Below are positions 40,283-54,436 of a stretch of DNA of 64,000 nt, one piece after another; positions within the stretch are counted from its first letter, which is position 1, and the number at the start of each line of letters is the position of its first letter. The stretch is from positions 449 through 64,448 of the forward strand of contig JAEUQG010000088.1 in assembly GCA_016789755.1 (NCBI GenBank). Direction: 5' to 3'. Below the pieces are notes generated by a model. It was not told the origin of the DNA, made no database searches, and saw only the letters and a list, made by a program, of their open reading frames with translations. The stretch comes from Bryobacterales bacterium. Its GTDB lineage: Bacteria; Acidobacteriota; Terriglobia; Bryobacterales; Bryobacteraceae. The position numbers and the translations under genes were made by a program.

Positions 40283-40561
40283 CTTTCTCTCGAAGGACCA
40301 CCAAGGCAGCGCCGGCCCGCTCGCCAAGATATCGATGGAATTGTACTGGAAGTGCACGCTCTCACTGCGGCGTTTCCCAAACAGGAGACCTGCGGCCTCT
40401 CGTTGCAGATGCGTCGCGCGGCCGTGTCTATTCCGGCAAACATCGCCGAGGGATTCCGCCGTCGTGGCAAGGTGGCGCGTACACCACAGCCATTCTGACT
40501 TCCTCGACTCCTGGCTCCTGACTTCCATATCCCGGATATCAAGGGCGAAGCCCTTGGTTGG
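40283..40561 (+). pseudogene. Decayed four-helix-bundle protein gene (23S rRNA intervening-sequence protein family) remnant
   Basis: The frame after the ABC-F TAG reads ...ARQDIDGIVLEVHALTAAFPKQETCGLSLQMRRAAVSIPANIAEGFRRRGK, the family core motif, then stops at 40496..40498. There is no start codon or N-terminal ~20 aa, and the C-terminal half is recognisable only in another frame (SDFLDSWLLTS). Confidence 0.6.
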
Positions 40562-43500
40562 CTACTTCGGCCCCGCCACCACCCACTTCGCCCCATCCAG
40601 ATCGTTGCGGTAGAACAGCCGCGGAGTCTGCAAACCCTTGCTCTCCCCGGCCACGCCAATCTGAAAGCTCAGCTTGCGGCCATCCCCCTCCGCCTTGCGC
40701 AGTTCCTCGTCCTGCATCTGCGGAACCCGCATCGCCGCATACTGCAACCACTCCAATGCCGACACCTGCCCGTCCCGCGGCAGCGTGTCCGCCTTCCCTC
40801 CCTTCAGCCCTTCTTCCACCAGCGCATACGTCAGGTACCCGTGCCCCAGCCGCGAAGTCTCCAGCGCTGCCTGTTGCGCCTGCGCCGCCGCCAGCACCAG
40901 CATTCCCTTTTCGTATGCCAGTTGCGCCAGCCCCCGGCTATTCATCGGACCGCGCCGGCTGTCATCGCTCTCCAGCAACTGCCCCGACTGGCACGAATCA
41001 ATCACCAGCATCACCCGGCCCGCGTCCATCCCTACCAGAGCTTCCTCCAGATCCAGATCCGTCACACCCCGCTTTACCAGCGAAGGCAGCGCCTCCCTCA
41101 TTCCCGCCGCCGCCCCGTCATAGCCCAGATCGTGCGCCGCCATCACAAACCGGTCGCCATAGGCGAACCCGTGCCCGGCGAAGAACACAATCACGGCATC
41201 CTCCGGCTTCGACGCCTCGCGAATACCGCGCAGCGCATCCATCGCCGCGGCCTTCGTCGCCCCGCCATCCTCCAGCACCTTCACCTCCACCCGCTCGTAC
41301 TCGCCGCGCTCTTCCGCCTTCTCTTTCACCGCCGCGGCAAACGCCCGCGCATCGGCCACCGCATAGCGCAGATCGAACGCGCTATTCGAATAACGGTTGA
41401 TCCCCACCGCCACAACACGCAACGTTGGCTTGCGCCGCAACGACTCGTCCCCAACCACAACCGCCGCCGCCTCCGCACTGCGAATATTGTCCCGGTTGAA
41501 AGCATACGCAGTCAGCTTGTTCTCCCCTGCCACCAGCGCCACATCCGCTTCCAGATCCGCCGCCCCCTCTGCATCCAACACCACCGCGCCACTCCACTTG
41601 CGCACCAGCGACCCGTTGCGAAACAGGCGCACATCGCGCACCCCGCTCCCATCCGCTCCGCCGCGGATCTCCCGCACTCCCACCTGCACGCGAGCCACTC
41701 GCGCATCCTTCCCCACCGCACGAACCCGCACCTCCGGCTGTCTCCGGTCCACGCTCGTAATCACACGCGCCGGCGCCACCCGCGTCCCACGCAGCAACTC
41801 CGCCAGCAGTCCAGGACGAAAATATTCATTGAAGTACATCTCGCCCGCCAGCGCTTCACTGCTCCCCCGGTCCACCCAATGAACCGTATTCCAACCACCC
41901 GGCGTCCCGTCGAAAAGCCCCTCCGCAGTCGTGACCAGCCAGTCCCCATTCCCCAATGCGCGAAGCCGCCCAAGCTCCTTCCCCGTTTCGAGCGACAACA
42001 CCGCAACCCCATCCCCAACCGGCTGGATCACCGCCTTCCCGCCAGGAAGGAATCTCGCACTCTGAAACCCGGTGGATTCGAGCTGTGTCACCATCCGCCC
42101 CGAACCAAGCTCGTACACCGTCGACGTCCCGCCCAATCCGGTGGCCGACATGGGAGCCGAAGCCAACAACAGCCGTCCATCGGGCGAAATCGCGTACGGC
42201 AGCCGCATCTCCGACCCCGCAATCGGCGCTATCTCCCTGCCCGCCGCAACATCGAACCTTCGGATAGGTCCACCCAACGCTCCCGATCCCATCGCCACCA
42301 TCGATCCGTCCGGGCTCAACAACATCGCCTGCGCGTTCAACTCCGCGCCCGGCGCGAACGAAACCAACTTCGTCCCGTTCCTCAGGTCGAACACATGCAT
42401 CTCGGAGCCGTACCGTAGCGGCTTCTTCTTCGACGGAAAAGGAGTCACCGCCACCGCCAGCCGCGATCCATCGCTGTTTACCGCGGAACTCCCGCCCAGG
42501 AACACATCCGGAATGCTCACGCTTCCCTCCACCTTCCCGCTGGCGGCTTCTCTCACCGTAAGGACAAGTTTCAGATCCGATAGACCGCGCCGCGTCACCC
42601 GCGATTCGGACTTCGTCTCCATCAGGTAACCGGACTGCGAGCCCAGCGCTTGCGCCGATTCGAACGTACCCCCAGGGATGGGCTGTCCCGTACTCAGATC
42701 GAACCGCGTCACAGGCGTCTTCCACATCGGCGCACCCGCCGGCATCCGGCGCGCGGCGGCACTCTCGTAGACTTTGTCCACCGTCCCCACTGCCGCCATC
42801 GATCGCCCATCCCGGCCAAACACAATCGAGGTGGTCCCCTCCGGGATGGCGATGCGCACCGGCGCCCGATTCCCCGTCGCCGTGTCCCACCGGTCCACGT
42901 AATTGTCCAAGGACCGGACATACAGCCATCGCGAGTCCGGACTCGACCCCGCCAGCGCCACCGTTGTCGGAAGAGCGGAAGCAACTTCGTTCGCCGCAGT
43001 CACCCTTCCTGCCGGTACCGCCGAGCTTGGCTCGATCGCAACAACCTGCAACACCCCATTCTCCAAAAACGCCGCCCGTCTCCCTTCCCGGTCAATCGCC
43101 GCCATCCGCATCGACCCTTGCGCCGGCAACAGCAAACCTGGAGCAGGCCCCAACACCCTCCCCGTGTCCACATCCAGCAATCGCAGATTCGCAACATCCT
43201 GCGAGCCCGCAACCACGTACGGCCCTTCTCCCAAAGGCATCGCGAACCCCTCTTTGCCCTCCGCGATAATCCTCCGCGTGGCGGCGTCCATCAACCGCCA
43301 GCCCTGGCCCGAGGACCGGACTTCAATCAGACGCCGGCCATCTTTTCCCGCTACCATCGCCACCCCCTCAACATCTGGCGCAACCACCTGCCCGCGCTCC
43401 AGATCGTAAACCCGCCCCCCCGTCCTGCTCACCATCATCGTTGCCCATTTGCCGCTTGGATGAAGCAAGCAGTAAGCCCCCACGATGTCAGTCCGCGTGC

Positions 43501-43981
43501 GCCTCCCCGTCTCCAGATCGAATCGCTCTACCCGCGCCGATTGGGCAGTTCCTTCCCCATCCGCGATGCAGGCGACCACCGAACTCCCCACTTCCGGCAC
43601 AGCCAGTTGCAATACCCCGCGCAGGAAACTTCCCTCGGCGCCGCCCAGCGCTTGCTCCCACAGCTTTCGGCCCTCCTTCACATCGAACACCATCACCGAC
43701 CGGTTCGTACCCACCGCCAGCAGATCCCGCACCGGATGCGCCGCCAGCCACACCGAAAACGCACTCGCATCCACCGCAAAGCTTCGTACCTTCTGCTTCG
43801 TCCCGGCATCGTAGAGATCCACCAATCCCGGGTTCACCGACACCGCCACCCACCGGCTTTGCGGCCCGAACGCCGCAACCTCAAGCCGGCCCCAACTCGC
43901 CCCTTCCCTGACCTGAATTCCCACCGTATCCGTCACCTGCCCCATCGCCGCCATGCTCAGTAGAAAAACAATATTCCGCAT
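40562..43981 (-). CDS. Exported beta-propeller repeat protein with C-terminal caspase (peptidase C14) domain
   Basis: Trimmed to the ATG at 43981 (MRNIVFLLSMAAMGQ, signal-like). About 700 aa of blade-like repeats (LLSPDGSMVAMGS, AISPDGRLLLASA, VNSDGSRLAVAV, FGRDGRSMAAVG...). The C14 domain has LRVVAVGINRY, the His of FFAGHG (41171..41173) and the Cys of VIDSCQSG (40991..40993). Confidence 0.9.
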   Translation of the reverse strand: MRNIVFLLSMAAMGQVTDTVGIQVREGASWGRLEVAAFGPQSRWVAVSVNPGLVDLYDAGTKQKVRSFAVDASAFSVWLAAHPVRDLLAVGTNRSVMVFDVKEGRKLWEQALGGAEGSFLRGVLQLAVPEVGSSVVACIADGEGTAQSARVERFDLETGRRTRTDIVGAYCLLHPSGKWATMMVSRTGGRVYDLERGQVVAPDVEGVAMVAGKDGRRLIEVRSSGQGWRLMDAATRRIIAEGKEGFAMPLGEGPYVVAGSQDVANLRLLDVDTGRVLGPAPGLLLPAQGSMRMAAIDREGRRAAFLENGVLQVVAIEPSSAVPAGRVTAANEVASALPTTVALAGSSPDSRWLYVRSLDNYVDRWDTATGNRAPVRIAIPEGTTSIVFGRDGRSMAAVGTVDKVYESAAARRMPAGAPMWKTPVTRFDLSTGQPIPGGTFESAQALGSQSGYLMETKSESRVTRRGLSDLKLVLTVREAASGKVEGSVSIPDVFLGGSSAVNSDGSRLAVAVTPFPSKKKPLRYGSEMHVFDLRNGTKLVSFAPGAELNAQAMLLSPDGSMVAMGSGALGGPIRRFDVAAGREIAPIAGSEMRLPYAISPDGRLLLASAPMSATGLGGTSTVYELGSGRMVTQLESTGFQSARFLPGGKAVIQPVGDGVAVLSLETGKELGRLRALGNGDWLVTTAEGLFDGTPGGWNTVHWVDRGSSEALAGEMYFNEYFRPGLLAELLRGTRVAPARVITSVDRRQPEVRVRAVGKDARVARVQVGVREIRGGADGSGVRDVRLFRNGSLVRKWSGAVVLDAEGAADLEADVALVAGENKLTAYAFNRDNIRSAEAAAVVVGDESLRRKPTLRVVAVGINRYSNSAFDLRYAVADARAFAAAVKEKAEERGEYERVEVKVLEDGGATKAAAMDALRGIREASKPEDAVIVFFAGHGFAYGDRFVMAAHDLGYDGAAAGMREALPSLVKRGVTDLDLEEALVGMDAGRVMLVIDSCQSGQLLESDDSRRGPMNSRGLAQLAYEKGMLVLAAAQAQQAALETSRLGHGYLTYALVEEGLKGGKADTLPRDGQVSALEWLQYAAMRVPQMQDEELRKAEGDGRKLSFQIGVAGESKGLQTPRLFYRNDLDGAKWVVAGPK

Positions 43982-43999
43982 CGCTTCCCTCCTCCTCAC

Positions 44000-45070
44000 T
44001 CACGGACGTGGGATGTTCCGCCGCCACCGCCGTGACAACGTATCCCCAGCCCCGCAGTCCAGGTCCAGCACATGCCAGTCGAAGTAGCTGTCCACCCGGT
44101 ACGTGAAGCTGCACCTCCGCCCGTTGAACGTCGCCTCCGTCGCTCCCGCCTGAAACGTCCCGCTGCGCCGCACCCCTGTCGTTCCGTCGAACAGCGCGAA
44201 CGTGCCATCGGCGCTGATCTCCATGTTCGTGTAGCCGCTATAGTCCATCCACCGCCCCGCAAACGGCACAGCGCTTGCCCGCGGCGCAGGATGCGACACC
44301 GCCGCCGGCGGATTCTCCATCAGCACCGCCGATGCCCCGCCTGTTCTCCTCCATACCTGCATCGCGCCCCCGCACTGCATGCGCATGATCTGATTCCCGC
44401 TCCCCACATCCGTCGTCACCCCCAGAAACTGACACGGAGCATTGTTGTTGATCGCAAACTCGCGGCCCGACAATCGCCACGTGCCGTCTCCCGTTTCCCC
44501 GCTCTGCGAATTGTAATACCGGAACGTCCCGTTCAGCCTCAGCTCCAACGTCGCCACATTCGACGAATACGGCCGCCACTGCCCCGCGATCGCCGCCATC
44601 TCACCTCCCGCGCCAACCACTCCGCCACCCGCCCCGCCTCGCGACACCATCGACCTCCGGTTCCGCTCCGGACCCGTCGCCGTAATGGTCCCCGCCGACC
44701 GGTCCACCCCATCCAGCAATTGCACCCGTACAACCCCGCCTTCGGCCCGCATCCGGAACGGCAATGCTTGCCCCTTCAAATTCAGCGGCGTCACCCACTC
44801 ACCCGGAATGGCGTCGAACGTGTAATGCGGCTCCCCAATCTCCCAATTCGTAATGTTCGGACCGCCCGGCGTCCCCTCCGGAGCCGAGATCGTTCCCGTC
44901 AGGTCGTTGATCACAATCCAATCCACCCGGCTGTGAATGGCAAACGGCCGGCATTGCGGCGCATGATCGGCGAATGCCGTCCTGCTGCGCATCGCCTCGC
45001 AGCGAACTCGCGGCTGGGCCGAAGCCAACCCCGCGAAAACAACCAAACCCAGCATCAGGGCGCCACTCAT
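44000..45070 (-). CDS. Hypothetical exported protein with internal ~85-aa duplication
   Basis: An ATG at 45070 follows AGGAGGGGGA and gives the signal-like MSGALMLGLVVFAGLASAQ. An upstream ATG at 45277 also has a GGAG 9 nt upstream. Two similar segments are present (IAGQWRPYSS...NGTF...CGG...WRR and FAGRWMDYSG...DGTF...CGAG...WRR). No family recognised. Confidence 0.7.
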   Translation of the reverse strand: MSGALMLGLVVFAGLASAQPRVRCEAMRSRTAFADHAPQCRPFAIHSRVDWIVINDLTGTISAPEGTPGGPNITNWEIGEPHYTFDAIPGEWVTPLNLKGQALPFRMRAEGGVVRVQLLDGVDRSAGTITATGPERNRRSMVSRGGAGGGVVGAGGEMAAIAGQWRPYSSNVATLELRLNGTFRYYNSQSGETGDGTWRLSGREFAINNNAPCQFLGVTTDVGSGNQIMRMQCGGAMQVWRRTGGASAVLMENPPAAVSHPAPRASAVPFAGRWMDYSGYTNMEISADGTFALFDGTTGVRRSGTFQAGATEATFNGRRCSFTYRVDSYFDWHVLDLDCGAGDTLSRRWRRNIPRP

Positions 45071-45364
45071 TCCCCCTCCTCTCAACCAACTTCCTGCACC
45101 CATCGGGCTCACCAGCGGCAGTTGCCACGCCTTGCACAACACAGCCACTTCACTCGCCAGCGGCCCCGGACCCGCCGCCGCCACCACACCCGCCCATTCC
45201 GGTCTCACCTCCCTCTGGTAATGAGCCCGCTGCGCCGGGCTCGCTGTCCCGCCGCCAATGCTTGCCGTTCGATTCATTGCGGCATTCTCCTTCCCGCCCG
45301 GCGCTTCTCTCCGCCGGGTCTCAATTGGGTAGGCGCAGCTTTTCGCAAAATCCCAAAACTTTTT

Positions 45365-46231
45365 TCACTCCACCGCGATTTCATACCGGAACAGCAGCGC
45401 TTGCCCGGCGTTCGCCGCCACATGCAACAGCATCTGCGGCATCGGATCGTCCTGCGTCAGCAGCTTGCCCCCTTCCCCCGCCGCGCTCTTCTCCAACTCC
45501 GTCCACAGATCCCGCGATCCCGCCGCCAGATCCAAACGAGTCACCGCTTGCCCCCACTCCCGCTCCATCTTCTCCACCAGGCTCCGCGGTAACCGCCTTG
45601 CTTCCGCCCCCGGCGCAAGTTCCTCCAACGGCTTTCCCGTCACCACAATCAGTAACTCCTCCCCCACCTGATCCGCACCGGCCATCTCCAGCGTCATCGC
45701 CGGCAATTCGTCCGTTTGCGCCGGAATATCCACCATCATCCCCGCCTGTACCCGGTTATCGCCCTTCCGTATGCCCCTTTGCGGAAAAACCAGGAACGGA
45801 TCGCCCGTCTTCCCTCCGCGGAACTTCTCGCGGTCGATCACATACAAATACCCGTCCCTCGGCACCTCGATCGAAACCCGCACTTTCGTCCCGTTCGCTA
45901 GCGCAGTCCCGCTCGACACCCGTTCCGCCACCATGCCCACCTTCTCCTTCGATTGCGGACGGTACACCAACAATCGGGGAGCACGCCCATCGCCCGCATT
46001 GGGTTCCCGCAGCCGCCACACCGTAACCCCAACAGCCGATCCACCTCCAACAGGAGCGCTGCTTTGCGCCCCCACGCTGTACTTCACCGCCGGTCGTGCT
46101 TTCCCCACCTTGCCAGCCGGCCGCTTCTGCCGGAAACCGCTATCCCAGATCTGACGCAACCCATCGTCCTGACCGGCTGCTGTCCCTGTCACCGATAAAA
46201 TGCAGCCGAGCCACAAAACCCTAACGTCCAT
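45365..46231 (-). CDS. Secreted DUF4384-like domain protein
   Basis: Trimmed to the ATG at 46231 (MDVRVLWLGCILSVTGTAAGQ, signal-like). The core is GTKVRVSIEVPRDGYLYVIDREKF....DPFLVFPQ.....DNRVQAGMMVDIP......GEELLIVVTGKP. Confidence 0.75.
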   Translation of the reverse strand: MDVRVLWLGCILSVTGTAAGQDDGLRQIWDSGFRQKRPAGKVGKARPAVKYSVGAQSSAPVGGGSAVGVTVWRLREPNAGDGRAPRLLVYRPQSKEKVGMVAERVSSGTALANGTKVRVSIEVPRDGYLYVIDREKFRGGKTGDPFLVFPQRGIRKGDNRVQAGMMVDIPAQTDELPAMTLEMAGADQVGEELLIVVTGKPLEELAPGAEARRLPRSLVEKMEREWGQAVTRLDLAAGSRDLWTELEKSAAGEGGKLLTQDDPMPQMLLHVAANAGQALLFRYEIAVE

Positions 46232-46328
46232 GGAACCCCCTCCTCCGCAAACTATCACGTGTCACTCTGTAGCGCGCTCACCAACAGCCCATGTTTTTCT
46301 AACGAAAATCTAACGTCCCCTGCCCGCT

Positions 46329-47969
46329 CTACTCCACCGCCACCTCCACCGCCCATGCAAACCCCTCCCCCGGACCCTCCACCGTAGCCTCTCCCTTCCC
46401 CTCCACAAACTCAACTCCCGCCCGCAGTCTCCCCAGCAGCTTCCGTACCGCCTCACGCTGACTCGCCGCCACCACCTCCCGCGCTTCCGATAGCCCTAAC
46501 GATGCCGGCTCCAACTCCACCATCGGCTTCGCACCCCAAATCAGCCAAAGAACGTTGCGTCCTCTCTCCGCCTCAAACCAACTGCTTTCCGGAATCGTGA
46601 ACGACTGCCCCGCTTTGAGAAACGAGAGCCCCCGATTGGCCGTCGGCGACGGAAAAAGCGCCACCAGCGGCGCCTTCCCCCGCTGCTCCGAATAGACGTA
46701 TAGAAAGCCGTCTTTGCCCGCCCTCACCTCCAATCGAAATCCCTCCGATCGCCCAAGCGCCAACCTATCCCTCACCTGTCTTCGCCCCCCATCCCGTCCC
46801 ACAATCGTGAAGGAGAACCTCGCCCTTTCCGCCGCCCCCCTCATCACCGGCGCCGGCGCCTGCCCTTCCCAACCGCGAAAAGCAACCCATGCTCCCGCCA
46901 TCGATACCAAACCCAGCAGACCAACCAGCACCCGCCTCTGCCCGCCTCGCTTCCCCCCTCCCTCCAACAACGTCTGCGCCAGCCGCCGCCCGAACTCCGC
47001 CGCATTCTCCGGCCTCCTCCGCGCATCCACCGCAAGCGCCGCCGCGATCAGTTCATCGGTCTCCCCAGGAATCTCCGGCCGTATCGTCTTCGCCCGCTTC
47101 CACTCCCCATCCCGCCGCAGAAACATCCGCCGCAACTCATTGTCCGCCTCGAACGGCAACACTCCCGTGAGAATTTCGTACGCCACCACCCCGAACGCGT
47201 AAATATCCGACGCCTTCCCCAATTGCCCGTCCCACTGCTCCGGAGCCATGTAAGCCTCCGTTCCCACCAGCGTCCTCGTCACCGCTCCGCTGCCGTCCGC
47301 CGCCAGCAGGCCCGCGATTCCGAAGTCGATCAGCTTCACGTGATATTCCCCGCCCGCCAGCGGCTGCAGCATGATGTTGGCCGGCTTCAGATCGCGGTGC
47401 AGAATCCTCGCCGCGTGCGCCGCATCCAACGCTCCCCCAATCTGCCGCACCAGATCCGCCGCCACCTCCAGCGCCACGGGTCCGCCCCGAATCAACTCCT
47501 CCAGCGGGATCCCCTCCACATACTGCATCACCAGGTACGGAGTGCCTTCCTCGAACGGCGTCCCCTTCTCCAGCCGTCCCGTGCCGAGCAGCCCCACTAC
47601 CCCCGGATGCCGCAGTTGCGCCAGCGCCTTGGCCTCTTCCTCGAACTTCCGCTCGTGCCACGCGCTCGCCGATACGTGCCGCAGCACCTTCACCACCACA
47701 AGCTGCCCGTAGGTCCTCGAATCCTCCGCCAGAAAAACTATCCCGAATCCCCCTTCCCCTAACTTGCGAACCACGCGGTAGCGCCCCGCCAGCACCAGTC
47801 CCTCCCCGTCCGCCGTCGCCTCCGCCCCCGCCCGCAACAATGACAACACCTCGTCCCGTACCGCGCGATCCCCGGTGGCCCCATCGACATACTGCTGCCG
47901 CTGCCACTCCGGCAGATCCACCGCCCCTGCCAGAATCTCTTTCACCCTGCGCTGCTGCTCAGGACTCAA
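46329..47969 (-). CDS. Transmembrane Ser/Thr protein kinase with DUF4384-like ectodomain
   Basis: Hanks motifs GEGGFGIVF, VVVKVL, HRDLKPANIML, DFGIAG, GTEAYMAPEQ. One TM segment (VLVGLLGLVSMAGAWVAF). The ectodomain reads FRLEVRAGKDGFLYVYSEQRGKAPLVALFPSP...LKAGQSFTIP...NVLWLIWGAKP. 11-bp overlap with the sigma gene. Confidence 0.92.
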   Translation of the reverse strand: MSPEQQRRVKEILAGAVDLPEWQRQQYVDGATGDRAVRDEVLSLLRAGAEATADGEGLVLAGRYRVVRKLGEGGFGIVFLAEDSRTYGQLVVVKVLRHVSASAWHERKFEEEAKALAQLRHPGVVGLLGTGRLEKGTPFEEGTPYLVMQYVEGIPLEELIRGGPVALEVAADLVRQIGGALDAAHAARILHRDLKPANIMLQPLAGGEYHVKLIDFGIAGLLAADGSGAVTRTLVGTEAYMAPEQWDGQLGKASDIYAFGVVAYEILTGVLPFEADNELRRMFLRRDGEWKRAKTIRPEIPGETDELIAAALAVDARRRPENAAEFGRRLAQTLLEGGGKRGGQRRVLVGLLGLVSMAGAWVAFRGWEGQAPAPVMRGAAERARFSFTIVGRDGGRRQVRDRLALGRSEGFRLEVRAGKDGFLYVYSEQRGKAPLVALFPSPTANRGLSFLKAGQSFTIPESSWFEAERGRNVLWLIWGAKPMVELEPASLGLSEAREVVAASQREAVRKLLGRLRAGVEFVEGKGEATVEGPGEGFAWAVEVAVE

Positions 47970-48537
47970 ACAGGCTCCCCCCCAATTCCCGCCGCAACCA
48001 TCGCTCCGCGTAGATCCACTCCTGCCGGGCTTTCTCGTCCGACACCTCCATCACCTCCCCGATCTCGCGGAAATTCAGCCCGCAAATCAAATGCATTTGC
48101 GCAACCTTTCCCGCCATTTCATCCCCCGCCAGCAGCTTCTCCAGCGCGATGTCGATCTCCACCCACGCATACCGGCGCCCGTCGGTGGCGCTCCCTTCTT
48201 CGAGCGGCGCCCGCACCCCCTCCCTCCTCACCGCCATCCGCCGCCGCGCCGAATCGATGAGTATCTGCCGCATCACCCGGGCCGCCGCCGAAAAGAACTC
48301 ATCTCCATTCCGCCACCGCGGCGCCTGCGCCCGGAACATCCGCACGAACGCCTCATTCACCAGCGCCGTGGGCTGAAGCGTGTGCCCCACCCTCTCCCCC
48401 GCCATGAAATGCCGCGCGATGCGCTTCAACCCCGCCTGCGCCGCCTCCAGCAGTTCGTTCTCCACATCGTGCCCCTCTTGGAGTTGTTCGATAAGCTGCG
48501 TGATCCCGGCCTTCGGTTCCACCACATGAGTATACAT
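47959..48537 (-). CDS. ECF sigma factor, TIGR02999/ECF43-like (kinase-associated type)
   Basis: Trimmed to the ATG at 48537. GITQLIEQLQEG......LKRIARHFMAGERVGHTLQPTALVNEAFVRM...EFFSAAARVMRQILIDSARRR...region-4 HTH NFREIGEVMEVSDEKARQEWIYAERWLRREL. No anti-sigma gene is adjacent. Confidence 0.88.
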   Translation of the reverse strand: MYTHVVEPKAGITQLIEQLQEGHDVENELLEAAQAGLKRIARHFMAGERVGHTLQPTALVNEAFVRMFRAQAPRWRNGDEFFSAAARVMRQILIDSARRRMAVRREGVRAPLEEGSATDGRRYAWVEIDIALEKLLAGDEMAGKVAQMHLICGLNFREIGEVMEVSDEKARQEWIYAERWLRRELGGSLFES

Positions 48538-48684
48538 CCCGCCGCCGCCCCCCTCGCGCCGCCGGTCACCGGCATGCAAAAAAAATTCTTCCCCCCAAAG
48601 TCCATCGAAACAAACACCCGTCTCCCACCGGCCCCAGCTCGCCATCCATTATGAGGAAATGCAACCCATTATCATCAAATCGTC

Positions 48685-49308: not shown

Positions 49309-49319
49309 CCTCGAAATTC

Positions 49320-49703
49320 CTACGCCCCAACCGCCAGCGCTTCCTCATGGCACGGCACCACCATCGCCGAGAAAGCTGCCAAAGAATAGGGCGATTGCGG
49401 CAGCCACCCCCGCAACCGGTATTCCAATCGCAAATACCGGACGTCAGGGCGACCCGACAAGTCTAATATGTGTTGGTAACGTCCACAATAATACCGGTGC
49501 GGTAGCCGGAGCACAGGGCGCGTGCCCCAGTCCGAGCCGTCCGGCGAACCCCAAACCACAGCATCCAGCGTCTGCTGCTCCATCATGCGCGTGATTTGCA
49601 GGGTGATTTCGATCGGTTGCCCGGCAGCATCGCCCAGGGCAACCACAGGACCGCAGCCATTATCATGGGCGGTCGCTTCAGGAAAGAGGACGATCGGCTT
49701 CAT
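49320..49703 (-). CDS. Hypothetical protein (127 aa)
   Basis: Clean ORF 13 bp downstream of the aminotransferase gene on the same strand. No family recognised. Confidence 0.5.
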   Translation of the reverse strand: MKPIVLFPEATAHDNGCGPVVALGDAAGQPIEITLQITRMMEQQTLDAVVWGSPDGSDWGTRPVLRLPHRYYCGRYQHILDLSGRPDVRYLRLEYRLRGWLPQSPYSLAAFSAMVVPCHEEALAVGA

Positions 49704-49716
49704 GGGAGATCTCCAC

Positions 49717-50907
49717 TTAGGTGAGTCTCTTTAAACGTTGCCTTGCCTCCTCCAATGTCTCATATTTTTTGCAGAAACAGAAGCGAATTAGTTGATGACC
49801 ATCCTCGGCCCGCAGAAAGAAACTCGACCCCGGCACCGCAGCCAAGCCACACCTCTGCAAAAGATGCATGGCGAACTCCGTGTCATTCGCAAACCCAAAC
49901 CCCGAGATGTCCGCCATCACATAATACGCCCCCGTCGGCCGAAACGGCCGGAACCCCGTCTCCTCCAACACCGAAACGATATGGTCGCGCTTCTTCTGAT
50001 ACTCGCGCCCCAACTCGGCGTAATATTCATCGTCCAGCCCCAGAGCTGTAACCCCCGCCATTTGCAGCGGATGCGCCGCACCCACAGTGAGAAAATCGTG
50101 TACTTTGCGGATCGAATCCGTCAGGTCCGGAGCTGCCAGCACCCACCCCACTCGCCACCCCGTCACCGAATACGTCTTCGACATCGAGTTCACCAGAATC
50201 CCGCGCTCCCGCATCCCCGGAACCGCCAGCACCGGCACATGCTCCGCCCCGTCGTACAGGATGTGCTCGTAGATCTCGTCCGTAATGCACAAAGCATCGA
50301 ACTCTTGGCACAATCCCGCAATATACGCCAGATCTTCGGCCGAAAACACCCGCCCCGTCGGATTGTTCGGGCTCGTCACAATCACCGCCTTCGTCCGGGC
50401 CGTAAACGCCCGCCGCAACTCATCCCGGTCGAAGGTCCAATCCGGCGGCCGCAGCGCCACCACCCGCCGCACCGCCGAGCACAACTCCGAATCCGGTCCG
50501 TAATTCTCATAGTACGGCTCGAAAACAATAATTTCATCGCCCGGATTCGTCACCGCCAGCAGCGTCGCAATCATCCCCTCGGTCGCCCCGCAGCAGACCG
50601 TGATCTCGCGCTCCGGATCCAGTTCCAAGCCATAGTGCCGCCGGTACTTGGCCGCAATCGCGTCACGAAACGGCTTGGCCCCCCAGGTGATCGAATACTG
50701 GTTGAACTCGGCGTCGATCGCCGCATGCGCCGCGGCCTTCAGCATCCCTGGCGCCGGAAAGTCCGGAAACCCCTGCGCCAGATTCACCGCCTTGTATTGG
50801 ATCGCCAGCCGCGTCATCTCGCGAATCACCGATTCGGTGAAATTCCGCGTCCGCGCGCTACGAAAACGTTCTCGAATTGCCTGCCCCGTCTCGGTTGGGA
50901 TTGCCAT
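49717..50907 (-). CDS. Class I/II PLP-dependent aminotransferase (YbdL/kynurenine-aminotransferase-like)
   Basis: NLAQGFPDFP...QYSITWGAKPFRDAIA...ITDEIYEHI...NSMSKTYSVTGWRVGW (PLP Lys context)...IRFCFCK. Confidence 0.9.
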   Translation of the reverse strand: MAIPTETGQAIRERFRSARTRNFTESVIREMTRLAIQYKAVNLAQGFPDFPAPGMLKAAAHAAIDAEFNQYSITWGAKPFRDAIAAKYRRHYGLELDPEREITVCCGATEGMIATLLAVTNPGDEIIVFEPYYENYGPDSELCSAVRRVVALRPPDWTFDRDELRRAFTARTKAVIVTSPNNPTGRVFSAEDLAYIAGLCQEFDALCITDEIYEHILYDGAEHVPVLAVPGMRERGILVNSMSKTYSVTGWRVGWVLAAPDLTDSIRKVHDFLTVGAAHPLQMAGVTALGLDDEYYAELGREYQKKRDHIVSVLEETGFRPFRPTGAYYVMADISGFGFANDTEFAMHLLQRCGLAAVPGSSFFLRAEDGHQLIRFCFCKKYETLEEARQRLKRLT

Positions 50908-50910
50908 GGA

Positions 50911-51529
50911 GTGCCTTACCCGAAGGTAACCCAGCCGAACTCCGTCCGTAAAGCCGCCCTAACTGCCCGCCCGCTCCCGGCTCACGTTCCCCTGCATGCC
51001 CTTACCCGCCGACAGCCCCGCCGAACTCTGTCCGTACAGCCGCCGGTACACCGAATCCGCCGCGCCGCATCGGCCTTCCCGTCAGCGTCCTTTCAGAACC
51101 AGCCAACGGCGTCCGGCTTAATTGCCCGCCCGCACCCGGCTCACGTTCCTCTGCATTCCTTTACCCGTCGGCAGCCTCGCCGAACTCTGTCCGTACAACC
51201 GCCGGTACACCGAATCCGCAGCGCTGCATCGGCTTTCCCGTCAGCGTCCTTCCAGAGCCGGCCAACGGCGTCCGGCTCAATTGCCCGCCCGCACCCGGCT
51301 CACGTTCCCCTGCATGCCCTTACCCGCCGGCAGCCCCGCCGAACTCTGTCCGTACAGCCGCCGGTACACCGAATCCGCAGCGCTGCATCGGCCTTCCCGT
51401 CAGCGTCCTTTCAGAACCAGCCAACGGCGTCCGGCTCAATTGCCCGCCCGCTCCCGGCTCGCGTTTCCCTGCATTCCCTTACCCGCCGGCAGCCCCGCGG
51501 AACTCTGTCCGTACAGCCGCCGGTACACC
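50911..51529. repeat. 159-bp tandem repeat array derived from the 3' end of the lytic transglycosylase gene
   Basis: Full units lie at 50961..51119, 51120..51278 and 51279..51437, each starting a(a/c)(t)tgcccgcccgc and about 90-95% identical by eye. A 92-bp partial unit at 51438..51529 is the real gene 3' end. A degenerate ~48-bp partial lies at 50911..50958. Confidence 0.9.
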
Positions 51530-53616
51530 CCGGCATTGCGCAGCACAATCTGCACGTAATCCCGTGTCTCCGCAATCGGGATCGTTTCGATAAATTCACT
51601 AGGCTCGCGGTACGTCCCCCAATTCAGCCACCGGTTCACCCGCGTCGGCCCGCCATTGTACGCCGCCAGCACATGCTCCCAGCGCGTTTTGAACGAGTCC
51701 AGCAGTTGCCGCAAATAGATCGTCCCCAGCCGCAAATTCATCTCCGGCTCGAACAGCTTCGCCGTCGTGAACCCGCGGATGCCGTTCTTCCGGCTCAGCC
51801 ACCGCCCCGTCGACGGCAGCACCTGCGTCAGCCCGTACGCCTTGGCCACCGAAATCGCCTTCGGATTGAACTCCGATTCCTGCCGGATCAGCCCCGCTAC
51901 GATGTACGGATCGAGATCCTTCTGCCGGGAATAGCGCTCCAGCGCGTCACGGTACGGCAGCGGAAATGCCACCCGCCAAAAATTCACCGGAGCGTCTTCA
52001 AACGGTATATTCAAATACCCCGGCACATACGCCTTCACCGCCCGCAGTGCTTCATCGTGAGCCCCACGGCTGTCCAGCAGCTTCGCCAATTCCATCGCGA
52101 TCACCTGCGGCTGCCCGTCGTTGCGCGCCGCAAACCGCAGTTCCCCTTCGGCCAGTTCCCCCAACCCCGCCGCGCTCAGGAGCCGCGCCCGTTCGAGCCG
52201 CGCCACCGTTGCCCGCGTCGGCTCGAAGCTCAGCTTGATCCGCCGCACCGGAAGTTCCAACCCGGCCAGAAAATCGCCCACTTCAAGCGACGCCGTCGCC
52301 TTGGCCAGCAACGCCGTCTCCAGCCGTTCCTCGGCCAGCATCGCGTAATAGTGGTTCGGAGCGTAATCGGCCAGATGCTGATAGTAAGCCTTCGCCATCC
52401 CGTAGTCGCGCCGCAACTCCGCCTGCCGCGCCAGAAAATAGAAGGAGGCTGGCACTTTCTCCGAATTCGGATAGCGCTTGATGTGCGCCCGGAACAGCGT
52501 CTCGGCATCGGCCGGACGCCGCTGATAGTTCCCCCACGTGATCTTCCAATCGCAGAACGATCCGTCGGGCTGCGCCGAAAACGACGCCGCGCACGTCTTG
52601 TACAGGCCCTCGTAGGTCTCCTGCTCCCCGCGCCCATGATACAGATAGGCCGTCGTCAAAATCGACTCCAGCCGCCACTTCGAGTTCGGATACTTCCGCT
52701 CCACCTCGGCCAGGTGGGCCCGCATGTCGCTTTCCCGGTCCAGCCGCTTCGCCAGATACGTCAGGTGATACAGCCGCTCGGCATCGGCTTCCGGCGAATT
52801 CACCTCCAGCCCGCGCAGGTATTTATAGGACGCCAGCATCTGACGGCCCTTGTAATCCATTACCCCCATGCGCACCCGCGCCAGATCGCGGTCATCCCCC
52901 GCCAGCGAGGACAGCGATTGCTCCAACTGCTGCTTCGCCTCGGCATAGCGGCGCGCGTTGGCCAGCGCATTGGCCCGGCCCAACAGCGCTTGCGCCAGCA
53001 CCGGCGGAAACTTTTCCCCCAACGACGCCTTCAGCCGCACCAGCGCCAGCCCAGCCTCTCCAGCCGATTCCGCAGCCGGGTATCCGTAGTAGACCTTCTG
53101 CCAGGAGGCAGCCGCCGAAATGGGGTCGCCGAGGGCTTCGTAAACACCGGCAAGTGCCGCTTCAGCAGTAGATTGTGGGATATTCTTATAGCTTTGCTTG
53201 AGCAGTGCGAGCGCGTCCTTCGCCCGCCCCAGCTCGACATACGCCTTCGCCGCCGACACCGCCGCTCGTGCCGCGAACGGAGACACCGGCTGGAACCGCA
53301 CCACCGCCGAAAACGCCCCCGCCGCCTTCGCCGAATCCTTCAACTCGGAATACGCAAGACCTTGAAAATAATAAGGATAGTCAGCAAGCTGCGGCATCCT
53401 CGGCAGCGCCCCTTGAAACGTCGCCACCGCCGCCCGAAACGACTTCTCCCGCATCTGCTCCAGCCCGCGCGAGAGCGCCTGCGGCGGAAAGTCCGCCCCT
53501 CTCCCCTGGCCCCATCCCTCCGGGACCAGCAGCGTCAGGCTAGCGCAAAGCGCCAGGGTATTCCGAACCGAGTTTCGATGGGTCATCGTTCGCCAGTGTG
53601 CGTACCAGTTCCTCAT
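51436..53616 (-). CDS. Soluble lytic murein transglycosylase (Slt70-like: superhelical N-domain plus SLT domain)
   Basis: C-terminal SLT motif AGLIRQESEFNPKAISVAKAYGLTQVLPSTG...AAYNGGP, and a long TPR-like helical N-domain. The start is uncertain (ATG 53616 or 53586). Confidence 0.88.
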   Translation of the reverse strand: MRNWYAHWRTMTHRNSVRNTLALCASLTLLVPEGWGQGRGADFPPQALSRGLEQMREKSFRAAVATFQGALPRMPQLADYPYYFQGLAYSELKDSAKAAGAFSAVVRFQPVSPFAARAAVSAAKAYVELGRAKDALALLKQSYKNIPQSTAEAALAGVYEALGDPISAAASWQKVYYGYPAAESAGEAGLALVRLKASLGEKFPPVLAQALLGRANALANARRYAEAKQQLEQSLSSLAGDDRDLARVRMGVMDYKGRQMLASYKYLRGLEVNSPEADAERLYHLTYLAKRLDRESDMRAHLAEVERKYPNSKWRLESILTTAYLYHGRGEQETYEGLYKTCAASFSAQPDGSFCDWKITWGNYQRRPADAETLFRAHIKRYPNSEKVPASFYFLARQAELRRDYGMAKAYYQHLADYAPNHYYAMLAEERLETALLAKATASLEVGDFLAGLELPVRRIKLSFEPTRATVARLERARLLSAAGLGELAEGELRFAARNDGQPQVIAMELAKLLDSRGAHDEALRAVKAYVPGYLNIPFEDAPVNFWRVAFPLPYRDALERYSRQKDLDPYIVAGLIRQESEFNPKAISVAKAYGLTQVLPSTGRWLSRKNGIRGFTTAKLFEPEMNLRLGTIYLRQLLDSFKTRWEHVLAAYNGGPTRVNRWLNWGTYREPSEFIETIPIAETRDYVQIVLRNAGVYRRLYGQSSAGLPAGKGMQGNASRERAGN

Positions 53617-54436
53617 GCAGATAATCGGACATGGACGGCGCGGCCAACAGGAATTCCTGCCGGTAGCGTTCCCGCCCGGAATCGATCGGCTCTTTCAGTT
53701 GGACGTACAACGATGCATTCCGGCGTCCGGAATCGACCGCCGGCTGTTCGAATAGCAGCAGACGGGCCACTTCCCGCCGCGCGAAGTTCTTCGCCTTCGT
53801 CTCCAGCACTTGCCGCTCGTAGCTCTTCTCCGCCGGAGCAATCTGGATCAACACCGGCCCCGCCACGGCCTCGGCTTCCGGTACAGGCTCGGGCTCAGCG
53901 GCGGGCGGAGCGGCCACCGGCACGGGCATCGTCTGCGCCGCCAGCATCGCCACCAGCTCCAACGCCTCCCGCGGCGGCTTCACCTTGTCCTCGGCATAGA
54001 GCACGGCACACACCGTCTCCCCATGGAACACAGGCACCAGGTAGCAGCGCGGACTCAGCGCCTCGCCCAGCCGCGCGGCCGCCTCCTCCCCTAACTCAGC
54101 GGCGGTGCGCATCGTGATCACCGTGTCGCGCGTCTCCATCGCCATGGCGAACGCCGGCGCCTCGGCCACCTCCCCGGCGGCAAACACTGCCACCCGCGAG
54201 GCATAGGCCGACGCCCCCTCTTCGAGAATGGTCTTCCATTCCTCCACCGACTCCGCCATCCGCAGCCGCCGCGCCAGTTGGTTCAACCGCTCCGATTGCG
54301 CCCGGTCCCGCCGCTCCAACTCCTTGGCCAGCTTCGCCGACAACTCCGCCAGACGGTTCGTCAGCGCGTGCTCGGTCTGCGCGAACGCCTGCCGCGTGGC
54401 TACTTCAAAATCGGCAAATGATTCCGCCAGAGACAT
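53540..54436 (-). CDS. Hypothetical protein (coiled-coil N-terminus, GAF-like middle, conserved-looking basic C-terminal module)
   Basis: 298-aa ORF divergent from the histidine kinase gene. Its 3' end overlaps the slt start region by 47-77 bp. No family confidently recognised. Confidence 0.6.
   Translation of the reverse strand: MSLAESFADFEVATRQAFAQTEHALTNRLAELSAKLAKELERRDRAQSERLNQLARRLRMAESVEEWKTILEEGASAYASRVAVFAAGEVAEAPAFAMAMETRDTVITMRTAAELGEEAAARLGEALSPRCYLVPVFHGETVCAVLYAEDKVKPPREALELVAMLAAQTMPVPVAAPPAAEPEPVPEAEAVAGPVLIQIAPAEKSYERQVLETKAKNFARREVARLLLFEQPAVDSGRRNASLYVQLKEPIDSGRERYRQEFLLAAPSMSDYLHEELVRTLANDDPSKLGSEYPGALR

What the first reader, a model, noticed from the sequence alone, without database searches (positions are those of the whole stretch)
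40805..41431. Catalytically intact C14 caspase domain predicted to act outside the cytoplasm
The His of VIVFFAGHG (codon 41171..41173) and the Cys of MLVIDSCQSG (codon 40991..40993) are both present in canonical p20 spacing (~60 aa apart). The protein starts with a Sec-type signal-like MRNIVFLLSMAAMGQ. Upstream of the protease lie at least 8 blade-like strings (LHPSGKWATMMV, AGKDGRRLIEV, AIDREGRRAAFLE, SSPDSRWLYVRS, FGRDGRSMAAVG, VNSDGSRLAVAV, LLSPDGSMVAMGS, AISPDGRLLLASA) and a beta-sandwich-like spacer. Studied bacterial orthocaspases are cytoplasmic, so a periplasmic or surface caspase tethered to a large ligand-binding propeller would be a different mode of use.
Basis: partly seen in the sequence, partly recalled or inferred. 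Interest (0 to 1): 0.6.

Follow-up and report, generated by a model that had tools for sequence, protein, structure and literature searches.

The report
Exported propeller-caspase protease of Acidobacteria
This gene encodes a bacterial relative of caspases that carries an export signal, two propeller domains and an intact active site, and it belongs to a large, unstudied Acidobacteriota family that keeps company with a kinase and a small partner protein, which points to protease signalling in the cell envelope rather than to something wholly new.

Summary
Window 40562..43981 (-) encodes a 1139-aa protein. It has a short Sec-type signal peptide (MRNIVFLLSMAAMG|Q), two seven-bladed WD40-like propellers, an Ig-like sandwich and a C-terminal Peptidase_C14 domain. 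His937 and Cys997 (codons 41171-41173 and 40991-40993) and both S1-pocket Asp residues are present, and they are nearly invariant in homologues.

Export is predicted, not shown. About 82% of 256 family members have signal-peptide-like N-termini. The operon partners are exported or membrane-anchored. This diderm genome places Gln at +1 of 34% of crude signal-peptide candidates, which matches the proposed cleavage site.

The protein is a divergent member of a large Acidobacteriota family (1,203 clusters at E<=1e-30), annotated "caspase family protein" and never studied experimentally. Extracytoplasmic prokaryotic caspase homologues with WD40 partners were already predicted in 2012, so the novelty claim is overstated.

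The more interesting result is the context. The operon reads ECF43-like sigma, Ser/Thr kinase with a DUF4384 ectodomain, secreted DUF4384 paralogue, orphan exported protein, propeller-caspase. The kinase/caspase/DUF4384 triad recurs in other Acidobacteriota.

My best reading is a periplasmic, Arg/Lys-specific caspase-like protease that works on or with DUF4384 proteins in envelope signalling. Earlier scan notes exist only for this same window.

The parts
40562..43981 (-). Gene for the exported propeller-Ig-caspase protein (1139 aa plus stop)
   Evidence: ORF. The start ATG at 43981 has AGGAGG 6 nt upstream. The database gene call P0002 is identical.
43988..43996 (-). Shine-Dalgarno-like AGGAGGAGG
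   Evidence: Read directly. It lies between the upstream gene's TGA (44000-44002) and the ATG.
43940..43981 (-). Predicted Sec/SPase I signal peptide, residues 1-14 (MRNIVFLLSMAAMG|Q)
   Evidence: It has an n-region (MR), a 10-11 residue h-region, and A at -3, G at -1 and Q at +1. It is a low-confidence helix in the AF2 model. 210 of 256 homologues have SP-like N-termini. This genome shows Gln at +1 in 34% of SP-like candidates and has many 14-17 aa signal peptides.
42962..43939 (-). Beta-propeller 1, about 7 blades (residues ~15-340)
   Evidence: AF2 model with four-stranded blades. Foldseek matches tandem WD40 proteins at E about 1e-20.
41867..42961 (-). Beta-propeller 2, about 7 blades (residues ~341-705)
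   Evidence: AF2 model. phmmer matches the PkwA WD40 structure 5yzv at E=1.8e-16. Foldseek.
41735..41866 (-). Conserved helical linker (residues ~706-749)
   Evidence: Helices 713-730 in the AF2 model. In the region-identity table the bin 676-745 (last blade plus linker) is 41% identical to homologues, against 18-23% for the propellers.
41447..41734 (-). Ig-like beta-sandwich spacer (residues ~750-845)
   Evidence: AF2 strands 750-844 with pLDDT 85-97. About 50% identical to homologues. No Pfam family matched.
40682..41446 (-). Peptidase_C14 caspase-fold domain (residues ~846-1100)
   Evidence: PF00656 at E=7.4e-13. The domain model has pLDDT 83. Foldseek hits MALT1 (3.5e-9), metacaspases Yca1, CgMCA and TbMCA2, GSU0716 and caspases 6/7.
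41171..41173 (-). Catalytic His (H937 from the ATG), in FFAGHG
   Evidence: Conserved in 50/51 homologues.
40991..40993 (-). Catalytic Cys (C997), in VIDSCQSG
   Evidence: Conserved in 51/51 homologues.
41351..41353 (-). Asp877 (YAVADA), putative S1-pocket Asp equivalent to TbMCA2 Asp95
   Evidence: Invariant in 51/51. The equivalence is by motif position, using PMC6426788 section 17; it was not tested by superposition.
40997..40999 (-). Asp995 (D-x-C), putative S1-pocket Asp equivalent to TbMCA2 Asp211
   Evidence: Invariant in 51/51. Same motif-based equivalence.
40931..40984 (-). Flexible, conserved basic loop after the Cys (..ESDDSRRGPMNSRG..), a candidate autoprocessing or regulatory loop
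   Evidence: pLDDT below 50 at residues 1000-1010. R1009, G1011, P1012 and N1014 are invariant. The proposed function is inference.
40565..40681 (-). Conserved C-terminal tail (..QTPRLFYRN..) that adds strands in the model
   Evidence: Strands 1121-1123 and 1134-1136. Q1118, P1120, R1121 and R1125 are invariant. No C-terminal sorting domain was matched by Pfam.
44000..45070 (-). Orphan exported protein (356 aa from the ATG at 45070; the ORF runs up to 45277)
   Evidence: ORF. The N-terminus MSGALMLGLVVFAGLASA|Q is SP-like. No Pfam family and no homologue in 84 related loci.
45365..46231 (-). Secreted DUF4384 protein, the conserved partner of propeller-caspases
   Evidence: PF14326 at 27.5 bits against a cut-off of 27. 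SP MDVRVLWLGCILSVTGTAAG|Q. Orthologues at E 1e-35 to 1e-53 were found in 21 of 84 related loci, most of them directly beside the caspase gene.
46329..47969 (-). Hanks-type Ser/Thr kinase with one TM segment and a DUF4384-like ectodomain
   Evidence: Pkinase at E=1.9e-45, with a sub-threshold DUF4384 match at residues 411-462. The ectodomain matches the secreted DUF4384 protein by BLASTP at E=8e-6. Related operons have kinases with PF14326 above the cut-off.
47959..48645 (-). ECF sigma factor of the kinase-coupled (ECF43-like) kind; it overlaps the kinase start by 11 nt
   Evidence: PF07638 at E=1.5e-34. The sigma-2.2 region reads LQPTALVNEA, with Thr in place of the acidic DxxD, as described for ECF43 in PMC13147305.

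Best explanation
The gene encodes a Sec-exported, catalytically competent caspase-family (C14) cysteine protease.

After cleavage of a 14-residue signal peptide, the mature protein begins with Gln. It consists of two fast-evolving seven-bladed propellers, which I take to be the substrate- or ligand-binding part. These are followed by a conserved cassette of linker, Ig-like domain and caspase.

The His/Cys dyad and two invariant Asp residues at the metacaspase S1 positions predict cleavage after Arg or Lys.

The organism is a diderm (Acidobacteriota-like), so the protein most likely acts in the periplasm or cell envelope.

It is co-transcribed with a kinase-coupled ECF sigma factor, a transmembrane Ser/Thr kinase whose ectodomain is DUF4384-like, a secreted DUF4384 paralogue and an orphan exported protein.

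I infer that DUF4384 modules are the protease's dedicated partners, either as substrate, docking site or inhibitor. On this reading, protease action on or binding to the free and kinase-borne DUF4384 domains is coupled to kinase signalling and to phosphorylation-dependent activation of the sigma factor.

Shown computationally: domain identity, fold, residue conservation, export signals and recurrent gene linkage. Inferred: localisation, P1 specificity, who cleaves or binds whom, and the direction of signalling.
For: Identity and fold:
- PF00656 at E=7.4e-13.
- AF2 full-length model with pLDDT 80 and pTM 0.78; domain model with pLDDT 83.
- Foldseek matches to MALT1, Yca1, C. glabrata MCA, TbMCA2, GSU0716 and caspases 6/7, E 3.5e-9 to 1.5e-6.
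- Tandem propellers match Utp21, Aip1 and Apaf-1 at E about 1e-20 to 1e-17.

Catalytic residues:
- His in 50/51, Cys in 51/51, and both Asp (D48 and D166 in domain numbering) in 51/51.
- 238 of 256 family members have both motifs in caspase spacing.

Export:
- The start codon is fixed by the SD sequence and by the upstream stop.
- 210 of 256 homologues have SP-like N-termini, and many of the rest look like truncated gene calls.
- Genome-wide, Gln is at +1 in 34.1% of 1557 SP-like candidates, against 4-7% at +2 to +7. Signal peptides of 14-17 aa are common.
- A TolC-like OEP in the window shows a diderm envelope.
- Of the other three C14 proteins of this genome, two start with clear SP-like N-termini and the third probably does.

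Linkage:
- Of 41 related loci with adequate flanks, 12 have an orthologue of the window's DUF4384 protein close to the caspase gene: directly beside it (within about 360 bp) in ten, several kb away in two.
- Operons of the form STK(PF14326)-caspase-DUF4384 occur in, for example, L075, L077 and L011.
- In the own genome, all 3 PF14326 hits lie in operons with C14 genes.
- In a 61-genome phylum sample, 13 of 22 DUF4384 hits lie within 10 kb of a C14 domain or are fused to one.
- The kinase ectodomain is a paralogue of the secreted DUF4384 protein.

Precedents:
- One group of C-terminal domains of Csx30, the substrate of the caspase-like Csx29, is DUF4384, and Csx30 controls an ECF sigma (bioRxiv 10.1101/2022.08.17.504292).
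- ECF43 sigmas are activated by cognate Hanks kinases with periplasmic sensor domains (PMC13147305).
Against:
- The signal peptide is at the short end of this genome's range at 14 aa.
- The S1 Asp assignment is by motif position, not by residue-level superposition. Sequence profiles did not reach any solved metacaspase.
- The genome has 71 Ser/Thr kinases and 46 PF07638 sigmas. Kinase or sigma proximity alone is therefore expected in about 17% of 20-kb neighbourhoods.
- The recurrent divergent ECF-STK arrangement in Pyrinomonadaceae looks like inherited synteny, with an unrelated permease in between.
- About 39% of well-flanked loci have neither a DUF4384 gene nor an ECF gene nearby.
- Nothing shows that DUF4384 is cleaved or bound by this protease.
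Confidence: 0.6

Rival explanations
1. The protease is an output, not an input. The ECF sigma and kinase sense some envelope or biotic stress through the DUF4384 ectodomain and switch on their own operon. The exported propeller-caspase is then an effector that remodels or defends the envelope, for example by degrading damaged or foreign proteins. The secreted DUF4384 protein would be its inhibitor or chaperone.
For: - All five genes are co-directional with short junctions. No convincing internal terminator was found, and there is one promoter-like site upstream of the sigma gene.
- Studied ECF43/kinase pairs control defensive outputs, for example T6SS against amoebae (PMC13147305).
- The propellers evolve much faster (18-23% identity) than the caspase cassette (41-53%), as expected for a target-binding part facing varied targets.
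Against: - Kinase-caspase-DUF4384 operons without any nearby ECF sigma are common (L075, L077, L011, L005). This suggests that the three proteins work together at the protein level.
- The kinase ectodomain and the protease's neighbour share the same domain. That is hard to explain if the protease were only cargo.
Confidence: 0.25
2. A secreted degradative or antagonistic protease, used for nutrient acquisition or against competitors and predators, with no signalling role. The linkage to kinases and DUF4384 would be incidental or purely regulatory.
For: - The export signal.
- Acidobacteriota encode many exported hydrolases (my own knowledge).
- Exported clan-CD proteases such as gingipains are degradative (my own knowledge).
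Against: - Caspase-family enzymes are typically site-specific, which fits poorly with bulk degradation (my own knowledge).
- A 700-residue tandem propeller and a dedicated conserved partner gene are unusual for bulk proteases.
- No secretion-system sorting domain was detected at the C-terminus.
- The DUF4384 adjacency is far above chance.
Confidence: 0.1
3. The N-terminal hydrophobic stretch is not a functional signal peptide, and the protein is cytoplasmic like the studied orthocaspases.
For: - The signal peptide is short (14 aa) with a single Arg in the n-region.
- No trained predictor was run.
Against: - The feature is family-wide, and relatives have longer, canonical signal peptides.
- Signal peptides of 14-16 aa followed by Gln occur in 119 Q(+1) cases in this genome.
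- The operon partners are exported or have extracytoplasmic domains.
- The start codon cannot lie further upstream.
Confidence: 0.04

Closest known systems
Orthocaspases / prokaryotic metacaspase-like C14 proteases (e.g. MaOC1 of Microcystis aeruginosa; reviews PMC5756287, PMC6426788)
   Same: - Bacterial C14 domain with a His/Cys dyad.
- Two conserved Asp at the S1 positions, which predicts Arg/Lys specificity.
- Fusion to protein-interaction repeats such as WD40.
   Different: - The studied examples have an N-terminal p20 domain, and the studied enzymes were treated as intracellular.
- Here the caspase is C-terminal, preceded by two propellers and an Ig-like domain.
- The protein carries a signal peptide.
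- No biochemical data exist for this subfamily.
Predicted membrane or extracellular prokaryotic metacaspases (Asplund-Samuelsson et al. 2012, PMC3501461)
   Same: That survey already reported three things: N-terminal TM helices that are 'likely signal peptides', extracellular partner domains, and WD40 as the most frequent partner domain.
   Different: The survey covered 1463 genomes of 2011 with few Acidobacteriota. As far as I read it, it does not describe this SP-propeller-Ig-caspase architecture, its size as a family, or the DUF4384/kinase linkage.
Type III-E CRISPR Craspase (Cas7-11 with Csx29 TPR-CHAT, Csx30, Csx31 and RpoE)
   Same: A caspase-like clan-CD protease is genetically coupled to an ECF sigma factor. 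[quoted passage not shown]
   Different: - Craspase is cytoplasmic, RNA-guided and uses a CHAT domain rather than C14.
- It has no kinase and no propellers.
- Here every sensor or partner domain is extracytoplasmic.
- This is an analogy and a lead, not membership.
ECF43-type sigma / Hanks kinase pairs (EcfP-PknT of Vibrio parahaemolyticus; EcfK-PknS of Xanthomonas citri, PMC13147305)
   Same: - The sigma gene overlaps a transmembrane Ser/Thr kinase gene.
- No anti-sigma gene is present.
- Sigma-2.2 has Thr (QPTA) where other ECFs have acidic residues.
- The kinase has a periplasmic domain.
   Different: The studied pairs are not linked to exported caspases or DUF4384 proteins. The input signal of any ECF43 kinase is still unknown.
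Gingipains (family C25, clan CD) of Porphyromonas gingivalis
   Same: They are exported Arg- or Lys-specific cysteine proteases with the caspase/haemoglobinase fold and Ig-like accessory domains (my own knowledge). They show that clan-CD proteases work outside the cytoplasm.
   Different: - They belong to a different family; no C25 match was found here.
- They use a T9SS C-terminal sorting domain.
- They are degradative virulence factors.
- They have no propellers and no kinase linkage.
Apaf-1 / caspase-9 apoptosome and MALT1 paracaspase
   Same: - Apaf-1 uses tandem WD40 propellers as the ligand sensor that controls a caspase, and it is among the structural matches of the propeller part.
- MALT1, a caspase domain flanked by Ig domains, is the best structural match of the protease part.
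   Different: - Both are eukaryotic and cytosolic.
- In Apaf-1, sensor and protease are separate chains joined through an NTPase oligomer.
- The resemblance here is in architecture only.

Membership tests
Peptidase family C14 (Pfam PF00656, caspase domain) | Profile match above the curated threshold | tested here: met
   49.1 bits against a cut-off of 21.4, E=7.4e-13, residues 863-1069. The generic PADLOC caspase model matches at 2.8e-11.
Peptidase family C14 (Pfam PF00656, caspase domain) | Caspase/haemoglobinase fold | tested here: met
   AF2 domain model with pLDDT 83. Foldseek probability 1.0 to MALT1, Yca1, C. glabrata and T. brucei metacaspases, GSU0716 and caspases 6/7, with TM about 0.45-0.55.
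Peptidase family C14 (Pfam PF00656, caspase domain) | Catalytic His (in an HG motif after strand 3) and Cys (after strand 4) | tested here: met
   FFAGHG and IDSCQSG lie at the ends of model strands 100-112 and 160-169. They are conserved in 50/51 and 51/51. A sub-threshold legumain alignment pairs the same two motifs.
Orthocaspase / metacaspase-like (basic P1 specificity) | Two Asp residues lining S1 (TbMCA2 Asp95 and Asp211) | tested here: inconclusive
   Asp877 (YAVADA) and Asp995 (D-x-C) are invariant in 51/51 and sit at the expected motif positions (PMC6426788). No residue-level superposition or assay was possible.
Orthocaspase (p20-only, no p10 domain) | Absence of a p10 domain and of its calcium-binding 280-loop | tested here: inconclusive
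   About 140 residues follow the Cys and complete the fold in the model. Their homology to p10 was not resolved.
Orthocaspase | Autoprocessing and proteolytic activity | not testable with these tools
   There is only a candidate: a conserved, disordered basic loop (RRGPMNSRG) after the Cys.
EACC1-associated caspase (NCBIfam NF047832) | Score above the curated cut-off | tested here: not met
   52.7 bits against a cut-off of 140. This is a generic caspase resemblance only.
Sec/SPase I secretory protein | N-terminal n-, h- and c-regions with small residues at -3 and -1 | tested here: met
   M-R, then IVFLLSMAAM, then A-M-G|Q by inspection. Family-wide. Matches the genome's own +1 Gln pattern. No SignalP or DeepTMHMM was available, and export itself was not tested.
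WD40-type beta-propeller | Seven four-stranded blades per propeller and similarity to WD40 proteins | tested here: met
   14 blades in the AF2 model. PkwA 5yzv at E=1.8e-16. Foldseek to tandem WD40 proteins at 6e-21. Pfam PF00400 itself is not matched by the window's divergent copy, but it is matched by homologues.
ECF43-like sigma / Ser-Thr kinase pair (neighbouring genes) | ECF sigma adjacent to a Hanks kinase, with Thr replacing the acidic residues of sigma-2.2 | tested here: met
   PF07638 at 1.5e-34. An 11-nt overlap with the kinase gene. LQPTALVNEA read and compared with the QTTA consensus described in PMC13147305. Group assignment by phylogeny was not done.
Craspase (type III-E CRISPR) | Cas7-11 and a TPR-CHAT protease | tested here: not met
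   No CHAT or Cas match in the operon. Used only as a functional analogy.

The most novel reading that the evidence does not exclude
DUF4384 may be a dedicated recognition module (substrate, dock or inhibitor) for caspase-like clan-CD proteases. It would be used both inside cells (the Csx30 substrate of Craspase) and in the envelope. On this reading the operon is a periplasmic proteolytic signalling cascade. The propeller-caspase senses a ligand, then cleaves or releases the DUF4384 ectodomain of the Ser/Thr kinase, with the secreted DUF4384 paralogue acting as decoy or buffer. The kinase then phosphorylates the ECF43-like sigma factor. This would supply the long-missing input mechanism for one class of kinase-coupled ECF sigma factors, and the first function for an exported bacterial caspase.
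Probability: 0.2. Interest if true: 0.75.

Novelty: new variant of a known kind. Interest (0 to 1): 0.45.

Why it matters
Bacterial caspase homologues are mostly discussed as intracellular cell-death or defence proteases. Here a very large, soil-dominant family (at least 1,200 sequence clusters, mostly Acidobacteriota) is predicted to work outside the cytoplasm. It is genetically tied to DUF4384 proteins and to transmembrane Ser/Thr kinases.

If the linkage reflects mechanism, three things follow:
- It would give a function to DUF4384.
- It would give a testable input for kinase-coupled ECF sigma factors.
- It would be an envelope counterpart of the Craspase-Csx30-sigma logic.

If it does not, the protein is still a useful and easily testable representative of an unstudied exported branch of family C14.

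Tried and rejected
- Sequence searches of the caspase domain against solved structures found nothing significant, either as a single sequence or as a 31-sequence profile. Only a sub-threshold legumain alignment paired the His and Cys motifs. I therefore relied on Pfam and on fold comparison.
- A profile of the DUF4384 partner found no solved relative.
- NCBIfam 'caspase_w_EACC1' scores far below its cut-off, so this is not filed as an EACC1-type conflict-system caspase.
- PADLOC gave only generic kinase and caspase domain hits, so there is no support for a known anti-phage system.
- The promoter/terminator scan was no better than shuffles. It gives only weak support for a single transcription unit.
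- I first counted kinase and ECF proximity as evidence, then discounted it. The genome has 71 kinases and 46 such sigmas. The divergent ECF-STK arrangement recurs in related Pyrinomonadaceae with a permease and a small secreted protein in between, which looks like inherited synteny.
- The GTG at 43999 was rejected as the start codon.
Full report
**Observation.** The His codon (41171-41173) and the Cys codon (40991-40993) are 60 residues apart. The finding's range (residues 857-1065) coincides with a Pfam Peptidase_C14 match at residues 863-1069 (E=7.4e-13, 49.1 bits against a gathering score of 21.4).

**Gene model.** The GTG at 43999 directly follows the TGA of the upstream gene. It is itself followed by AGGAGGAGG and, 6 nt later, by the ATG at 43981. 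The ATG is therefore the start, which gives 1139 residues. This is identical to the database gene call P0002. Residue numbers below count from this ATG.

**Anatomy.** An AlphaFold2 model built on 46 full-length homologues has mean pLDDT 80 and pTM 0.78. It shows the following parts:
- a low-confidence N-terminal helix (residues 2-13);
- 14 four-stranded blades between about residues 21 and 703, which form two seven-bladed propellers;
- a short helical linker;
- an Ig-like sandwich (about 750-845, pLDDT 85-97);
- an alpha/beta domain (853-1100, mostly pLDDT above 90);
- a short C-terminal tail that adds strands.

The whole model matches tandem-WD40 structures such as the SSU-processome proteins, Utp21, Aip1 and Apaf-1 (E 6e-21 to 1e-17). 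By sequence, the second propeller matches the bacterial WD40 protein PkwA (E=1.8e-16).

A separate model of the last 310 residues has pLDDT 83 and pTM 0.86. It matches the following structures with Foldseek probability 1.0:
- the MALT1 paracaspase (E=3.5e-9);
- the metacaspases of C. glabrata, yeast (Yca1) and T. brucei;
- the Geobacter caspase-like protein GSU0716;
- caspases 6 and 7.

**Catalytic residues.** In 51 aligned sequences the His of FAGHG is kept in 50 and the Cys of DxCxSG in all 51. Asp877 (YAVADA) and Asp995 (the D of D-x-C) are also invariant. These two Asp residues occupy the motif positions of T. brucei MCA2 Asp95 and Asp211, which give metacaspases and orthocaspases their Arg/Lys specificity (PMC6426788). 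I assigned this equivalence by motif, not by superposition, so basic P1 specificity is inferred. Across 256 family members, 238 carry both catalytic motifs in caspase spacing. A disordered but conserved basic loop (..EEKRRGPMNSKG.. in the consensus) follows the Cys. It is a candidate autoprocessing site, which is inference.

**Export.** The N-terminus reads MR / IVFLLSMAAM / A-M-G|Q, which fits the n-, h- and c-region layout of an SPase I substrate. Four further lines support export.
1. The feature is family-wide. 210 of 256 homologues pass a crude signal-peptide rule. Most relatives have longer, canonical peptides that end ..A/G|Q(K/R)PEL just before the first blade. Many failures are visibly truncated gene calls.
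2. A crude scan of the whole 8.2-Mb genome found 1557 signal-peptide-like N-termini. Gln is at +1 in 34.1% of them, against 4-7% at +2 to +7 and 4.0% background. Peptides of 14-17 residues are common. The caspase's short peptide and its Gln15 fit the organism's own pattern.
3. The co-directional neighbours all face the envelope. The 356-aa orphan protein and the 288-aa DUF4384 protein have signal-peptide-like N-termini. The kinase has one TM segment followed by a DUF4384-like ectodomain.
4. The organism is a diderm, because a TolC-like OEP protein lies in the window.

No lipobox is visible in the signal peptide, and Pfam matched no C-terminal sorting domain. The periplasm is therefore the default destination.

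**Family.** The full-length protein has 488 significant relatives among the candidates scored. They are annotated 'WD40 repeat protein/uncharacterized caspase-like protein' or 'caspase family protein', and where a source names the organism they come from Blastocatellia, Pyrinomonadaceae, Terriglobia and other Acidobacteriota. The caspase domain alone finds 20,063 cluster representatives at E<=1e-3 and 1,203 at E<=1e-30. The best 150 are mostly proteins of 1,000-1,700 aa with the match at their C-terminal end. The window's copy is divergent. Its propellers are only 18-23% identical to relatives, while the linker-Ig-caspase cassette is 41-53% identical. This is the pattern of a conserved effector cassette joined to a fast-evolving binding part.

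**Context.** The gene is the last of five co-directional genes:
- an ECF sigma (PF07638), whose sigma-2.2 reads QPTA as described for kinase-activated ECF43 sigmas (PMC13147305);
- a Hanks kinase that overlaps the sigma gene by 11 nt;
- the secreted DUF4384 protein;
- an orphan exported protein;
- the propeller-caspase.

Kinase or sigma proximity is weak evidence by itself, because this genome has 71 kinases and 46 such sigmas.

The DUF4384 link is strong.
- Orthologues of the window's DUF4384 protein (E 1e-35 to 1e-53) are present in 12 of 41 well-flanked related loci. In ten they lie directly beside the propeller-caspase gene, downstream or convergent. They are often accompanied by a roughly 600-aa kinase that itself carries PF14326.
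- In the window's own genome, all three PF14326 hits lie in operons with C14 genes. These include two secreted DUF4384 proteins directly upstream of a secreted caspase-TPR protein on another contig.
- In a 61-genome sample of the phylum, 13 of 22 DUF4384 hits are within 10 kb of a C14 domain or fused to one. One contig carries nine caspase domains and eight DUF4384 domains.

A second recurrent arrangement is a divergent ECF-kinase pair about 2 kb upstream, seen in 13 of 41 loci. It occurs in related Pyrinomonadaceae with a permease and a small secreted protein in between, so I treat it as inherited synteny rather than independent evidence.

**Mechanism.** I consider the following settled at the computational level:
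- this is an intact C14 protease;
- it carries an export signal;
- it has a tandem-propeller front end;
- it is genetically linked to DUF4384 proteins and DUF4384-bearing kinases.

I infer that it acts in the periplasm as a site-specific Arg/Lys protease, and that the DUF4384 modules are its substrates, docks or inhibitors. This would couple proteolysis to the kinase and, in this operon, to phosphorylation of the sigma factor.

The closest precedent is type III-E Craspase. There a caspase-like protease cleaves Csx30, a protein that holds an ECF sigma, and one group of Csx30 C-terminal domains is DUF4384.

The main rival is that the protease is the output of the sigma/kinase pair rather than its input. 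The data cannot decide between the two. Kinase-caspase-DUF4384 operons that lack a sigma gene favour direct protein-level cooperation.

**Comparison and novelty.** The protein is a member of family C14 and works like an orthocaspase or metacaspase-like enzyme. It fails the threshold of the EACC1-associated caspase model, and it is not part of any known defence system in PADLOC.

Predicted extracytoplasmic bacterial caspase homologues with WD40 partners have been in the literature since 2012 (PMC3501461), and exported clan-CD proteases such as gingipains are well known.

I did not find the following in the searched literature:
- this SP-propeller-propeller-Ig-caspase architecture;
- its abundance in Acidobacteriota;
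- the conserved triad with a secreted DUF4384 protein and a DUF4384 kinase.

I therefore rate it a new variant of a known kind, of moderate interest.

Noticed in passing
whole genome G000 (window = C424:449-64448); examples in the window at 43937-43939 (Gln15 of the caspase), plus the DUF4384 protein, the orphan protein, the OEP protein (58503..) and Slt (..53616): There is a strong preference for Gln at position +1 after predicted signal peptides. Gln is at +1 in 531 of 1557 crude candidates (34.1%), against 4-7% at +2 to +7 and 4.0% background. This resembles the 'Q-rule' (N-terminal pyroglutamate after SPase I), which is described as exclusive to Bacteroidetes (PMC5837995, PMC10653852). No PF05096 glutaminyl cyclase was found in this 87%-complete genome. 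M28-type cyclases were not examined.
   Followed up: partly
G000:C557:3281-7066 (locus L085): A second exported caspase operon lies in the same genome. Two secreted DUF4384 proteins (321 and 235 aa) sit directly upstream of a 693-aa protein with signal peptide, caspase, PEGA-like and TPR parts.
   Followed up: partly
G031:C24:1975-28510 (a genome of the same phylum): One contig carries nine Peptidase_C14 domains interleaved with eight DUF4384 domains, including at least one fusion. This is a large caspase/DUF4384 gene array.
   Followed up: no
whole genome G000: The genome has 71 Hanks-type kinase domains and 46 PF07638 ECF sigma matches, many as adjacent pairs. This is a massively expanded kinase-coupled sigma system. 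A further pair lies at the window's high end; the kinase tail is ORF 62234..64000.
   Followed up: no
window 40001-54000: GC skew is extreme, from -0.25 to -0.40 across the block of minus-strand genes from the caspase operon to slt. It is much stronger than in the rest of the window.
   Followed up: no
window ~50900-51530: A spurious plus-strand ORF (49792..54117) shows an approximately 53-residue peptide repeated about four times (..RPHPAHVPLHSFTRRQPRRTLSVQPPVHRIR..). This indicates a tandem DNA repeat of about 159 bp between the aminotransferase and slt genes.
   Followed up: no
loci L015, L034, L045, L058, L071 (Pyrinomonadaceae): In these relatives a small secreted protein (about 140-155 aa in L015, L034 and L071) and a permease that looks like a purine permease (by eye; not run through Pfam) lie between a divergent ECF-kinase (PD40 propeller ectodomain) pair and the propeller-caspase gene.
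   Followed up: partly
window 44000-45277: The exported protein between the DUF4384 gene and the caspase gene has no Pfam family and no homologue in any of 84 related loci. It is an orphan insertion into an otherwise conserved module.
   Followed up: partly
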